From assembly GCF_009931435.1 (NCBI RefSeq), contig NZ_CP043414.1: a stretch of DNA of 64,000 nucleotides. The stretch is one strand, 5' to 3'. The stretch comes from Escherichia coli (lineage in GTDB: Bacteria; Pseudomonadota; Gammaproteobacteria; Enterobacterales; Enterobacteriaceae). Made by a program: the position numbers. This document shows positions 3,001 through 6,000 of this stretch, in pieces (the stretch's first letter is position 1; the number at the start of each line of letters is the position of its first letter).

Positions 3001-6000
3001 GCCATTGCGGGCGGCTTTAACCTGGCCAACATCGAGAAACTGCGCAACCGCTACAACACGGCCACTTTTAACATGCTCTATATGTGCGTGTTCGTGGACA
3101 GCAAAGACTCCGTTTTCAGTTTCGCGGATCTGGAAGCCTGCGGCGTGGAGGTGGACACCTGGCAGGATCATAACCCGGATGCCCTGCGCCCCTTCGGAGA
3201 CAGACCCGTCTGGGGCGGTTTTGACCCGGCACGCAGCGGCGATTTGTCGTGTTTCGTCATTGTCGCCCCGCCGATGTTTGCCGTGGAGAAATTCCGCGTT
3301 CTGAAAGTGATTTACTGGAAGGGAATGAACTTCAGATACCAGGCAAAACAGATCGAACAGCTGTTTAAAAAATACAACTTCACGTATCTGGGCGTTGACG
3401 TTACCGGCATTGGCCAGGGTGTTTTTGACAATATCCAGCATTTCGCCATGCGTGTGGCCGTCGCCATTCGTTACGACATGAACACCCAAAACCAGCTGGT
3501 ACTGAAGGCGGCAGACGTGGTGGAAAGCCAGCGCATTGAATGGGACAAAAACCTGAAAGAGATCCCGGCCAGTTTTATGTCCGTGCGCCGAACCACCACA
3601 CAGAGCGGCAACGCCATGACGTTTGTCGCAGACCGCAGCCAGGACACTGGTCACGCAGAGGCATTCTGGGCAATCACCCACGCCCTGCATAACGAGCCTC
3701 TGAACTACGAAAACAAACCGAAATCCCGCTGGGGTGTGAGGAACAAAGCAGCATGAGCAAAAAGAAACGCTTCGTTAAGCGCGACCCGCGCGGCGATAAA
3801 TCAAAAAAGATGAGCATTATCACGTTCGACAAACCGGAACCAGTGCTGACCACCGGCACGGATTACCGTGATATCTGGTATGACAACGCCGCAGATCACT
3901 ACACCCAGCCGATTGACCGGCTGGCGCTGGCGCAACTTATCAACCTTAACGGCCAGCATGGTGGCATCATCCACGCCCGAAAAAATATGATTGTGTCCGA
4001 TTACCTAGGGGGCGGTCTGACGTATGACCAGCTTGAAGCCGCAGCGTTTGACTATACGACCTTCGGAGATATCGCGATTGGCAAAATCCGCAATGGCTGG
4101 GGAGACGTGATCGGGCTGGAGCCTTTACCCGGTCTGTATATCCGCCGCCGTAAACTCAGGGATAACGCAGAAAATGTACCCGGTGATTATGTGGTTCTAC
4201 AGGAAGGAGAGCCGCAAATCTGGCCGCAGGAAGACATTATTTTTATCAAAATGTATGACCCCCAGCAGCACATCTACGGGCTGCCGGATTATATCGGAGG
4301 GGTGCATTCGGCCTTACTGAACAGTGAGGCGGTCATTTTCCGCCGTCGCTACTACCATAACGGCGCCCATACGGGTGGCATCCTGTACACGCGTGACCCC
4401 AGCATGACGGATGAAATGGAAGAAGAGATTGAACAGCAGCTGCGTGACAGCAAAGGGATCGGCAACTTCTCCACCATTCTGGTGAACATTCCAGGCGGGG
4501 ACGGTGACGCCATCAAATTCATTGAAATGGGGGATATCTCTGCAAAAGATGAATTTGCCAACATCAAAAATATCAGTGCGCAGGACATTCTCAACGCTCA
4601 CCGCTTTCCCGCAGGGCTGGCCGGAATTGTCCCGCAGAATACTGCCGGGCTGGGTGATGTTGAAAAGGCTGAAAGGATTTACAAGAAAAGCGAGATAGCG
4701 CCCATTCAGCGCCGGTTTATGACCGCTGTTAACAACGATCCCGAAATACCTGAACGGCTGCATCTTAACTTCGATTTAAGTTACACAGAATCAACGGATA
4801 AGGATGCGGCATGAGGCGAAAAAGGCTAAAATCCAGGCATCATTTAACAGCTGGAGCATGGAATATGCGAGTTCTGAAAATCGAATGCCCGGAATGCGGC
4901 TCAAAGGCTGTTATTCGTAAAACAAACCGGAAGCACCGGCAGATTGCGGATATTTACTGCGCATGTTCAGATGTGGAGTGTGGCCATACTTTTGTTATGA
5001 ACCTGACGTTCTCCCACACTCTCAGCCCCAGCGCTAAAACGGGTGATGCGATGGTGCAAAAAATACTGAATGCACTTTCACCCGATCAGCGCCAGATGGC
5101 ATTAGACCTACTGAAAGCGCCCCCCGCCGCCTGAAATGCCCCCATTCTGGGGGCGTTGCCCTTCCTTTTTAACCATTTCGCGAACCTCTCCCGCAAGCTC
5201 TCCAATCCAGGCCAAAGCGATTGTTTTCTCTCTCTGGTTACTTTCGTAAACATGGGCAATTTTGGCCAATAACTCAATGCGTTCCAGCTGTGCCGACGCC
5301 TCCAAAAGATCCATTTAGCCCCCACAAGCAATAAATAACTGGATATACATACAGTATACCTTAAAGCACGAATTGTGAAATTTAATTTCCTGTCATCTAC
5401 TGACAAATGAATGCCTTTCACATACTTACACCGCTATAACCACCCCGGCCACAGCTCCTGTAATGGCTCGTTTTGAGTCTCTTTAAGCCGTCCGTTGCGG
5501 TAAATCAGAGCGCCCTGACCAAATCTCAAACCACTACCCCGCAGGAGAATAGCTATTTCTTCATCAGAACCATCAAAACCCCGACTGCGTAATTCCAGTT
5601 TTAACCGTCTGCGGGTTCCCCCTTCCGTACAGTTATTGACAGAACTCCAAGGGGCGGCGTTGCCGCCAGAAAAACCCGCCTCCGCTGGCGCTGCGGCCAA
5701 CTTCGCAACCTTCTGCCACTTCACCAGGCGCGTACATACCGCTGAATCTGGAATCAATGGAGAATAGACACCCTGAACGCGCTGCACGTCCTCTGCGTAT
5801 TCATTGCCCTGCTCTGTGATTTCATAAGCCAGACGAACAACCAGATCACGACGGGCAACCAGTGCGCCACCCTGCTCCTGGGTGTATGCCGCCCAGTCCC
5901 CAACATCCGCAGCAGCCAGAACCGCATCCATTCTGCGGTCAGTCAGCACCTGATCACGTAACCGGCGCAACTCGCGCCAGACTGTCACTGGCGCACCGCC

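What the first reader, a model, noticed from the sequence alone, without database searches (positions are those of the whole stretch)
4815..5433. Compact cos-proximal accessory region with an Ogr-like zinc finger and a small antisense ORF
In P2 the segment between the portal gene/cos and the A gene holds the variable tin/old cargo, a position known to carry anti-phage genes. Here it is only ~600 bp and contains an Ogr/Delta-type zinc-finger gene (in P2 ogr lies elsewhere) plus a 68-aa ORF on the opposite strand overlapping its 3' end. This is an unusual arrangement of the late activator and a candidate small regulatory or antitoxin-like gene.
Basis: partly seen in the sequence, partly recalled or inferred. 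Interest (0 to 1): 0.4.

Follow-up and report, generated by a model that had tools for sequence, protein, structure and literature searches.

The report
SOS-controlled antirepressor beside phage late activator
The 600-bp gap in this E. coli prophage holds its late-gene activator and, facing it, a small DNA-damage-controlled gene that most likely switches the prophage on; both are ordinary parts of this phage lineage, though the small gene is unannotated in the source genome.

Summary
Both ORFs exist as described. The window is 100% identical to E. coli MFDS1016424 and carries a 186/HP1-like Peduoviridae prophage.

- **Zinc-finger gene (4811 or 4865 to 5134, +).** It is a clear Ogr/Delta member and the only one in the prophage. 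Its place just after the portal gene is normal for the ESSI-2, K139, HP1 and F108 branch, so it is not unusual.
- **68-aa ORF (5108-5314, -).** It is a real gene. dN/dS is about 0.19 over codons 1-50, and there are 65 homologues and 134 clusters at 50% identity.
  - It is homologous to the N-terminal, antirepressor half of phage 186 Tum (hhalign 97.8%, E 1e-12).
  - It sits at the tum position next to replication gene A.
  - A p95-like promoter with a LexA box (5337-5356, 17/20) precedes it. That box is conserved in all compared loci.
  - The prophage CI is 186-type (47% identity) with no autocleavage domain detected.

The most likely mechanism is that DNA damage removes LexA, the small protein is made, and it sequesters CI to induce the prophage. 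It has no DinI-like domain or partner gene.

The 27-bp overlap and the glycine-rich tail are incidental, and the cargo slot is empty here. "cos-proximal" is unsupported and "antitoxin" is rejected. This is a new member of a known kind, of low to moderate interest.

The parts
3753..4814 (+). Portal gene (context). It is the last structural gene of the terminase-portal late operon.
   Evidence: Pfam Phage_portal and phrog_68 at E 6e-119.
4811..5134 (+). Ogr/Delta-family zinc-finger gene, the presumed late-gene activator. The long form starts at 4811 (ATGA overlap with the portal stop, the PGAP call). The short form starts at M19 = 4865, preceded by a GGAG Shine-Dalgarno. The cysteine motif is CPEC-x19-CAC-x4-C.
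   Evidence: PF04606 at E 9e-20 and phrog_603 at E 1e-44. It is the only Ogr homologue in the complete relative ev040 and in the source prophage annotation. Core dN/dS is about 0.02. The 18-codon extension shows 0 synonymous and 1-2 non-synonymous changes, yet it stays open in 8 lineages. The start codon is therefore unresolved.
5136..5170 (+). Intrinsic terminator of the terminase-portal-ogr operon: a CCCCC/GGGGG hairpin followed by a T-run. It lies inside the 3' coding part of the 68-aa ORF on the other strand.
   Evidence: RNA fold -17.1 kcal/mol, z -3.5. Terminator-like scan hits. CCCCC-N5-7-GGGGG followed by T's is kept in all five aligned phages.
5108..5314 (-). tum-like gene: 68 aa, a stand-alone homologue of the N-terminal (antirepressor) half of phage 186 Tum. 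Residues 1-53 form the conserved two-helix core. Residues 54-68 form a variable, disordered tail encoded antisense to the terminator and the ogr 3' end.
   Evidence: hhalign against the Tum-N alignment gives 97.8%, E 1.2e-12. BLASTP gives 1e-5 to 186 Tum and 4e-10 to the annotated 60-aa 'tum protein' of vB_YenM_06.16-2. PHROG families cross-hit. dN/dS is 0.19 in the core and 0.73 in the tail. AlphaFold2 gives pLDDT 81 with helices 3-22 and 27-53.
5319..5323 (-). Shine-Dalgarno sequence (GGGGG), 4 nt upstream of the ATG of the tum-like gene.
   Evidence: Read from the sequence. A GGGGG or GGAGG motif sits at the same place in all compared loci.
5337..5356 (-). LexA operator (SOS box), TACTGTATGTATATCCAGTT.
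   Evidence: It matches the consensus at 17/20 and is the only site within 3 mismatches in 64 kb, with 0 expected. A 16-18/20 box lies in the same position in all 11 compared loci, including the mapped p95 operator of phage 186, and also in PSP3 tumA.
5351..5379 (-). p95-like promoter: -35 TTCACA (5379-5374), a 17-nt spacer, and -10 TACTGT (5356-5351) lying inside the LexA box.
   Evidence: Phage 186 p95 has the same hexamers and geometry: TTCACA, then 18 nt by my reading (17 nt between the -35 and -10 signals as annotated), then TACTGT. It is conserved in S.Kent, ev040, L016 and L018. This is inferred and not mapped.
5434..7458 (-). Replication gene A (context). The tum-like module lies directly downstream of it, as in 186, PSP3 and ENT90.
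   Evidence: Pfam Phage_GPA at E 5e-103. Synteny is shown.
10722..11303 (+). 186-type CI repressor, the presumed target of the small protein.
   Evidence: 47% identity to 186 CI at E 1e-49. Pfam finds Phage_CI_repr and Phage_CI_C only, with no S24 peptidase domain. The start is taken from the PGAP annotation.

Best explanation
The region holds two convergent regulatory genes of a 186/HP1-like prophage.

(1) The Ogr/Delta zinc-finger protein is the phage's single late-gene activator. It is encoded as the last gene of the terminase-portal late operon and is followed by an intrinsic terminator.

(2) The 68-aa ORF is a stand-alone Tum-type antirepressor under SOS control. In the lysogen, LexA binds the operator at 5337-5356, which overlaps the -10 of a p95-like promoter, and keeps the gene silent. 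DNA damage leads to RecA-stimulated LexA cleavage and the gene is transcribed. The roughly 50-residue two-helix protein then binds the 186-type CI repressor, which has no autocleavage domain of its own, and stops it binding its operators. The lytic promoter is derepressed and the prophage is induced.

Shown here: the homology to the Tum N-half, the conserved LexA box and promoter geometry, the synteny, the presence of a 186-type CI, and purifying selection on the core. Inferred here: LexA binding in vivo, physical binding to CI, and a requirement for induction.

The 27-nt overlap with ogr and the glycine-rich tail result from the empty cargo slot between the two genes. They are not a conserved functional feature.
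For: - **Homology.** hhalign of the 20-sequence family against the Tum-N alignment (186 Tum 1-69, ENT90, the Yersinia 'tum protein') gives 97.8% probability and E 1.2e-12 over 39 columns. BLASTP gives 1e-5 to 186 Tum and 4e-10 to the annotated 60-aa tum protein. phrog_698, phrog_8554 and phrog_1993 are hit reciprocally by both proteins.
- **Operator.** The 17/20 LexA box is unique in 64 kb with 0 expected. It is conserved at the same distance from the start codon in 11 loci, while the surrounding sequence diverges.
- **Comparison with 186.** Phage 186 has p95, a LexA site and tum at the same place after gene A.
- **Target.** CI is 47% and CII 45% identical to those of 186. No S24 domain was found in CI.
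- **Literature.**
  - Tum is a LexA-controlled antirepressor that binds CI.
  - In PSP3 and Fels-2 tum is split, and the upstream half carries the antirepressor activity (PMC3121763; PSP3 tumA is annotated 'UV induction of prophage').
  - Induction of 186 proceeds through p95-tum (PMC7708051).
  - Deleting tum, or making lexA(Ind-), abolishes mitomycin induction of a P2-like prophage in E. coli HS (PMC11195241).
- **Coding signal and fold.** dN/dS is 0.19 over codons 1-50. The predicted fold is a confident helical hairpin.
- **Ogr.** Pfam E 9e-20. It is the single copy. 186 B likewise sits at the 3' end of a late operon before a terminator.
Against: - No experiment exists on this protein or on any close relative. 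Every database name for it is 'hypothetical protein', and it is unannotated in the source genome.
- Identity to 186 Tum is only about 31% over about 39 residues.
- Similarity to the one split antirepressor with reported function, PSP3 TumA, is not significant.
- There is no DinI-like domain or downstream dinI gene, unlike 186, PSP3, Fels-2 and E. coli HS.
- One half-site of the LexA box is CCAG rather than ACAG. The genuine uvrB box in this window has the same variant.
- For Ogr, no P2-type TGT-N12-ACA element was found between the divergent scaffold and terminase genes, so its DNA target is unknown.
Confidence: 0.77

Rival explanations
1. The 68-aa protein is SOS-induced but has another job. 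It could modulate host RecA or the SOS response, block cell division, or exclude other phages, while induction of this prophage works by another route.
For: - SOS operons of P2-like phages carry other functions. The DinI-like half of Tum modulates induction, and 186 orf97 blocks 186 infection.
- The function of this subfamily is untested, and all members are named 'hypothetical'.
- There is no significant similarity to PSP3 TumA.
Against: - The homologous segment is the N-half of Tum and not the DinI half. No DinI match was found.
- The prophage has a 186-type CI with no autocleavage domain.
- No other LexA box within 3 mismatches of the consensus was found in the window, which covers only part of the prophage.
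- It is therefore the only SOS-controlled candidate found in the part of the prophage examined.
Confidence: 0.12
2. The main product is an SOS-induced antisense RNA, or the main effect is transcriptional interference. Transcription from the LexA-controlled promoter runs into the ogr 3' end and the late operon and tunes late-activator expression. The ORF would be secondary.
For: - The genes are convergent with a 27-nt overlap.
- The hairpin at 5136-5156 has a T-run only on the + strand. Minus-strand transcripts probably read through to a terminator-like site at 4940-4926 inside ogr.
- The same convergent, LexA-boxed layout occurs in Vibrio phage VPUSM 8.
Against: - The amino-acid sequence of codons 1-50 is under purifying selection, and the Shine-Dalgarno and start codon are conserved.
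- The overlap is not conserved. L020 has none, and L016 and L018 have a 1-kb gene between the two.
- In 186, PSP3 and ENT90 the homologous gene does not face ogr at all.
Confidence: 0.05
3. The small ORF is an antitoxin-like gene or part of a toxin-antitoxin or defence cargo.
For: The ORF is small, and the site carries cargo in P2 (tin, old) and in relatives of this prophage.
Against: - There is no adjacent toxin-sized partner. The only neighbours are ogr and gene A.
- PADLOC and Pfam gave no hit.
- The protein is homologous to Tum.
- The gene is kept next to gene A whether or not cargo is present.
Confidence: 0.02

Closest known systems
Tum antirepressor of coliphage 186 (p95 SOS operon)
   Same: - It is homologous over the N-terminal roughly 45 residues.
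- The promoter has the same layout: -35 TTCACA, then -10 TACTGT embedded in a LexA box.
- It sits at the same position, downstream of replication gene A.
- The partner is the same type of CI repressor (47% identity), alongside a 186-type CII.
   Different: - The protein is 68 aa rather than 146 aa, with no C-terminal DinI-like domain and no in-frame truncated products.
- No orf97-like gene lies downstream.
- The gene runs head-on into the ogr gene instead of towards cos.
Split tum genes: PSP3 TumA/TumB, Fels-2, the E. coli HS P2-like prophage, and the 60-aa 'tum protein' of Yersinia phage vB_YenM_06.16-2
   Same: - It is a stand-alone small protein of about 60 aa behind a LexA box next to gene A.
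- The upstream half is reported to carry the antirepressor activity.
- It is 41% identical to the Yersinia protein (E 4e-10).
   Different: - There is no downstream DinI-like (tumB) gene here.
- Sequence similarity to PSP3 TumA itself is not significant. This fits a specificity that co-varies with CI.
Ogr (P2), B (186) and Delta (P4) late-gene activators, and the portal-adjacent zinc-finger genes of HP1, K139/VPUSM 8 (orf13) and F108 (Orf17)
   Same: - It has the Ogr_Delta four-cysteine zinc finger.
- It is a single copy and sits at the 3' end of a late operon before a terminator, as does 186 B.
- Its position after the portal gene is the same as in the HP1/K139 branch.
   Different: - In P2 and 186 the gene lies after tail gene D near att, not after the portal gene.
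- It is 89-107 aa with a C-terminal extension ending LDLLKAxxAA.
- It is only 26% identical to 186 B.
- No P2-type TGT-N12-ACA site was seen at the scaffold/terminase promoters.
Other LexA-controlled antirepressors (N15 AntC, Gifsy GfoA/GftA)
   Same: The logic is the same. LexA represses a small antirepressor that inactivates a repressor which cannot cleave itself.
   Different: No sequence relationship was detected, and they come from different phage families.

Membership tests
Tum-type LexA-controlled antirepressor (186 Tum N-half / split tumA) | Sequence homology to the N-terminal, antirepressor half of Tum | tested here: met
   hhalign gives 97.8% and E 1.2e-12. BLASTP gives 1e-5 and 4e-10. 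PHROG families are hit reciprocally.
Tum-type LexA-controlled antirepressor (186 Tum N-half / split tumA) | LexA operator overlapping the promoter's -10 just upstream of the gene | tested here: met
   A 17/20 box at 5337-5356 is unique in the window. It is conserved in 11 loci including 186 p95. Binding itself was not tested.
Tum-type LexA-controlled antirepressor (186 Tum N-half / split tumA) | Location downstream of replication gene A in a P2/186-like genome | tested here: met
   The order is the same in 186, PSP3, ENT90 and vB_YenM_06.16-2.
Tum-type LexA-controlled antirepressor (186 Tum N-half / split tumA) | A cognate 186-type CI repressor without a RecA-dependent autocleavage domain in the same phage | tested here: met
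   CI is 47% identical to 186 CI. Pfam finds Phage_CI_repr and Phage_CI_C only.
Tum-type LexA-controlled antirepressor (186 Tum N-half / split tumA) | A DinI-like C-terminal domain or an adjacent dinI-like gene (present in 186, PSP3, Fels-2 and HS; not needed for antirepression) | tested here: not met
   The protein ends at 68 aa, no DinI match was found, and the next gene is ogr on the other strand. None of the 134 family representatives is longer than 124 aa.
Tum-type LexA-controlled antirepressor (186 Tum N-half / split tumA) | Binds CI, prevents operator binding, and is required for UV or mitomycin induction | not testable with these tools
   This needs genetics and biochemistry. It is known for 186 Tum (PMC3121763, PMC7708051) and for the HS prophage tum (PMC11195241).
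Ogr/Delta zinc-finger late activators | Match to Pfam PF04606 above the gathering score, with four cysteines | tested here: met
   70.8 bits against a cut-off of 26.3. The CPEC...CAC-x4-C motif can be read in the translation.
Ogr/Delta zinc-finger late activators | Late promoters carrying the P2-type dyad TGT-N12-ACA near -55 | tested here: not met
   No such site lies in the 1820-1980 scaffold/terminase intergenic region. A different dyad, TTCGG-N13-CCGAA, sits there. The recognition site of this subfamily is unknown, so this does not exclude activator function.
Ogr/Delta zinc-finger late activators | Activates late transcription through the RNA polymerase alpha subunit | not testable with these tools
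   This needs an experiment.
P2/186-type cos site | The 19-nt cohesive-end sequence GGCG(A/T)GGCGGGGAAAGCA(C/T) between portal and the early-region end | tested here: not met
   The best match is 13/19 in window 1-12400 and 15/19 elsewhere in ev040, against 18/19 at the expected place in ENT90. No local alignment to the P2 or 186 cos regions rose above noise.
Type II toxin-antitoxin or defence cargo | An adjacent partner gene in one operon, or a match to known antitoxin or defence families | tested here: not met
   There is no partner ORF and no Pfam or PADLOC match.

The most novel reading that the evidence does not exclude
The head-on arrangement may itself be regulatory. The SOS-induced transcript has no efficient terminator on its own strand. 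It would run antisense through the late-operon terminator and the 3' part of ogr. Early after DNA damage it could delay or tune production of the late activator. Later, strong late transcription could shut off the antirepressor by collision. The same convergent layout, a LexA box followed by a small ORF facing a portal-adjacent zinc-finger gene, occurs in the distantly related Vibrio K139-like phage VPUSM 8, where the small protein is unrelated. That recurrence would argue for selection on the geometry rather than on the protein.
Probability: 0.1. Interest if true: 0.45.

Novelty: new member of a known kind. Interest (0 to 1): 0.25.

Why it matters
The result gives a function and a testable mechanism to a small protein family that databases list as 'hypothetical'. 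The family has 65 close homologues and 134 clusters at 50% identity, and the gene is missing altogether from the source genome's annotation.

If confirmed, this is a minimal antirepressor of about 50 residues, a two-helix hairpin, for 186-type CI repressors with no DinI module. That would help in dissecting how Tum recognises CI, and in predicting which P2-like prophages of Enterobacteriaceae can be induced by DNA-damaging antibiotics.

It does not change how P2-like phages are understood. The SOS-antirepressor logic and the zinc-finger position are both already known in related phages.

Tried and rejected
- **Locating cos.**
  - Local alignment of the P2 and 186 cos junctions to this region in six phages gave only noise.
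  - A 19-mer scan gave at most 13/19 in the window and 15/19 in ev040, against 18/19 in the ENT90 control.
  - The G-rich stretch at 5120-5134 looked cos-like by eye. It is not conserved in ESSI-2, Yen324 or L016, so I rejected it.
  - The ends of the ev040 record were uninformative.
  - The position of cos remains unknown.
- **P2-type late promoter element.** TGT-N12-ACA is absent from the scaffold/terminase intergenic region. The TTCGG-N13-CCGAA dyad found there occurs only once per genome, so it could not be shown to be a shared late-promoter element.
- **A CI operator shared between the region upstream of ogr and the CI/apl switch.** No shared motif of 9 nt or more was found.
- **Databases.**
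  - Rfam gave nothing meaningful in 4500-5700.
  - PADLOC gave no defence match.
  - A sequence search of solved structures found no relative.
- **Weak similarities.** PSP3 TumA and Vibrio VPUSM 8 orf12 are not significantly similar to the 68-aa family.
- **The 111-aa ORF at 5086-5421.** I rejected it as spurious.
- **Fold search.** I did not run one, because a two-helix hairpin would match too many structures to be informative.
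Full report
**Context**

The first 12.4 kb of the window are part of a P2-like (Peduoviridae) prophage. The gene order is:
- scaffold (1016-1819, -)
- large terminase (1918-3756, +)
- portal (3753-4814, +)
- a zinc-finger gene, then a small ORF on the opposite strand
- replication gene A (5434-7458, -)
- a Dam methylase and several small early genes
- CII (9831-10334, -), Apl/Cox, CI (10722-11303, +) and integrase (11305-12360, +)

The window is 100% identical to E. coli MFDS1016424, NZ_CP106924.1. About 0.5% of complete E. coli genomes (28 of 5426) carry this segment. 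The closest phage records are Salmonella phage S.Kent 1-2-1 (86%) and Quadragintavirus ESSI2_ev040, ev015 and ev129 (83%).

**Observation**

The + strand gene is a clear Ogr/Delta zinc finger: PF04606 at E 9e-20 and phrog_603 at E 1e-44.

The 68-aa ORF is a conserved gene.
- It matches phrog_698 over its whole length, E 2e-22.
- It has 65 homologues in six enterobacterial genera, all named 'hypothetical'.
- It has 134 representatives at 50% identity. Nearly all are stand-alone proteins of 45-124 aa that match over their first 50 or so residues.
- Against the Salmonella relative, codons 1-50 give dN/dS of about 0.19 and codons 51-68 about 0.73.
- It is not annotated in the source genome.

The competing 111-aa ORF at 5086-5421 has no family match and is not conserved as an ORF.

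**What the small gene is**

Twenty-two nt upstream of its ATG lies TACTGTATGTATATCCAGTT (5356-5337 on the - strand). This matches the LexA consensus at 17 of 20 positions. It is the only site within three mismatches in the whole 64 kb, with none expected by chance.

A box scoring 16-18/20 sits at the same place in every related locus I examined:
- S.Kent, ev040, ESSI-2 and vB_YenM_324
- three metagenome or genome loci
- vB_YenM_06.16-2, ENT90 and phage 186

In 186 it is the annotated LexA site of promoter p95. PSP3 tumA has one too. The flanking sequence diverges while the box stays.

The promoter geometry also matches p95. A -35 TTCACA is followed, 17 nt later, by a -10 TACTGT that lies inside the box. 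A weaker box of the CTGT-N9-CAG type elsewhere in the window (62654-62669) matches what I recall as the host uvrB SOS box, and it also carries the CCAG half-site.

The protein is homologous to the N-terminal half of 186 Tum.
- BLASTP gives E 1e-5, 32% identity over 38 residues.
- It is 41% identical, E 4e-10, to the 60-aa protein annotated 'tum protein' in Yersinia phage vB_YenM_06.16-2.
- A profile-profile comparison of the 20-member family with a Tum-N alignment gives 97.8% probability and E 1.2e-12.
- The two proteins hit the same three PHROG families reciprocally.

In 186, p95, the LexA site and tum lie in the same position, directly after gene A. PSP3 tumA and the ENT90 homologue do as well.

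According to Lemire et al. 2011 (PMC3121763), Tum is an antirepressor fused to a DinI-like half. In PSP3 and Fels-2 the two halves are separate genes, and the upstream one carries the antirepressor activity. 186 induction proceeds by SOS derepression of p95 and Tum inhibition of CI (PMC7708051). A tum deletion or lexA(Ind-) abolishes mitomycin induction of a P2-like prophage in E. coli HS (PMC11195241).

This prophage has the matching target. Its CI is 47% identical to 186 CI, with the two 186-type CI domains and no S24 peptidase domain. Its CII is 45% identical to 186 CII.

The most likely mechanism is therefore this. LexA holds the gene off in the lysogen. DNA damage lifts that repression. 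The small protein then sequesters CI and triggers lytic growth. Binding and requirement are inferred and not shown.

**Anatomy of the overlap**

AlphaFold2 on the family alignment predicts two helices (3-22 and 27-53) at pLDDT around 90, and a disordered tail from residue 54.

The tail is encoded antisense to two features. One is the intrinsic terminator of the terminase-portal-ogr operon: the 5136-5156 hairpin at -17.1 kcal/mol, z -3.5, followed by a T-run. The other is the last nine codons of ogr.

The tail varies freely among homologues. In relatives of this family, a 345-aa DUF2806 gene separates the two genes, and there the tail is entirely different. In another relative the two genes abut without overlapping.

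The overlap and the glycine-rich tail are therefore by-products of an empty cargo slot and not a conserved device.

**The zinc-finger gene**

It is the only Ogr/Delta homologue in the complete relative ev040 and in the annotated source prophage, so it is presumably the late activator.

Its position is not unusual for its lineage. Terminase, portal, then zinc finger is the order in five enterobacterial genera: Quadragintavirus, Seongnamvirus, Evevirus, Tresduoquattuorvirus and Irrigatiovirus. The same order holds in Vibrio phage VPUSM 8 (K139-like), Pasteurella F108, Haemophilus HP1 and a Pseudomonas phage. P2, 186, PSP3, ENT90 and vB_YenM_06.16-2 lack it there.

Being the last gene of a late operon before a terminator parallels 186 B, whose terminator tB ends both pB and late transcripts.

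The start codon is unresolved. The 18-codon extension from 4811 overlaps the portal stop and stays open in eight lineages. It is much less conserved than the core, however, and among close relatives it shows only non-synonymous changes.

I found no P2-type TGT-N12-ACA element at the divergent scaffold/terminase promoters, so this subfamily's recognition site is unknown.

**cos**

Nothing supports 'cos-proximal'. No P2/186-type cohesive-end sequence occurs in the prophage part of the window or in ev040. The same scan finds an 18/19 match at the expected place in ENT90. In HP1, which shares the portal-adjacent zinc finger, cos lies next to attP and int, about 10 kb away. The cos site of this lineage remains unlocated.

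**Rivals**

- Another SOS-induced function is possible but less likely. The homologous part is the antirepressor half and not the DinI half, and no other SOS-controlled candidate was found in the part of the prophage examined.
- A primarily antisense or interference role is not excluded as an add-on. It is disfavoured as the main function because of the protein-level constraint and the non-conserved overlap.
- An antitoxin role has no support: there is no partner gene and no family match.

**Verdict**

It is partly wrong on three points: the arrangement is not unusual, the ORF is not an antitoxin, and cos proximity is unsupported.

The region is an ordinary regulatory junction of an HP1/ESSI-2-type, 186-like prophage. 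Its one useful new point is the assignment of an unannotated or 'hypothetical' small-protein family as stand-alone, DinI-less Tum-type SOS antirepressors.

Noticed in passing
window 13168-13261 (compare 12267-12350): An imperfect copy, about 90 bp long, of the 3' end of the prophage integrase gene lies about 800 bp beyond the gene. It sits after a 194-aa minus-strand ORF (12381-12962) and before host mntS. It may be a relic of an earlier integrase or part of the attachment-site duplication. There is no tRNA gene here.
   Followed up: partly
window 10608-10625: A perfect palindrome, CCTGTACGGCAATACAGG, lies at the start of the apl/cox-like gene in the CI/Apl switch region. It also fits the CTGT-N8-ACAG core of a LexA box but has a GC-rich centre. 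It is a candidate CI or Apl operator.
   Followed up: no
window 1903-1925: A TTCGG-N13-CCGAA dyad lies between the divergent scaffold and terminase genes and is conserved in ESSI2_ev040 (16957-16979). It is a single copy per genome. It is a possible binding site for the Ogr-like activator in place of the P2 TGT-N12-ACA element, which is absent there.
   Followed up: partly
L023 (Vibrio phage VPUSM 8, KF361475.1) locus 2756-3060: An 81-aa ORF (orf12) converges on and abuts the portal-adjacent zinc-finger gene. It has a perfect LexA box, CACTGTATTAATATACAGTA, in its annotated promoter P12. The architecture is the same as in the window, but the protein shows no detectable homology to the 68-aa family.
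   Followed up: partly
L016 3300-4340 and L018 3356-4393 (Salmonella diarizonae and Citrobacter freundii relatives): A 345-aa DUF2806 gene is inserted between the tum-like gene and ogr, exactly where the window has nothing. It has no PADLOC match. It is a candidate lysogenic-conversion or defence cargo of unknown function.
   Followed up: partly
window 62654-62669: The sequence CTGTTTTTTTATCCAG lies here. From memory it matches the host uvrB SOS box. I did not check the position against the genome annotation, because the annotated stretch fetched ends before it. It carries the same CCAG half-site variant as the prophage box.
   Followed up: no
window 7451-7651 (-): A 66-aa ORF lies between replication gene A and the Dam methylase gene. 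It overlaps both by a few bases and is annotated as hypothetical in the source genome. It has a hydrophobic N-terminal half and no Pfam, PHROG or PADLOC match.
   Followed up: no
window 4926-4940 (-): A terminator-like hairpin with a T-run sits on the minus strand inside the ogr coding sequence, about 170 nt beyond the stop of the tum-like gene. It is a possible end point of the SOS transcript.
   Followed up: no
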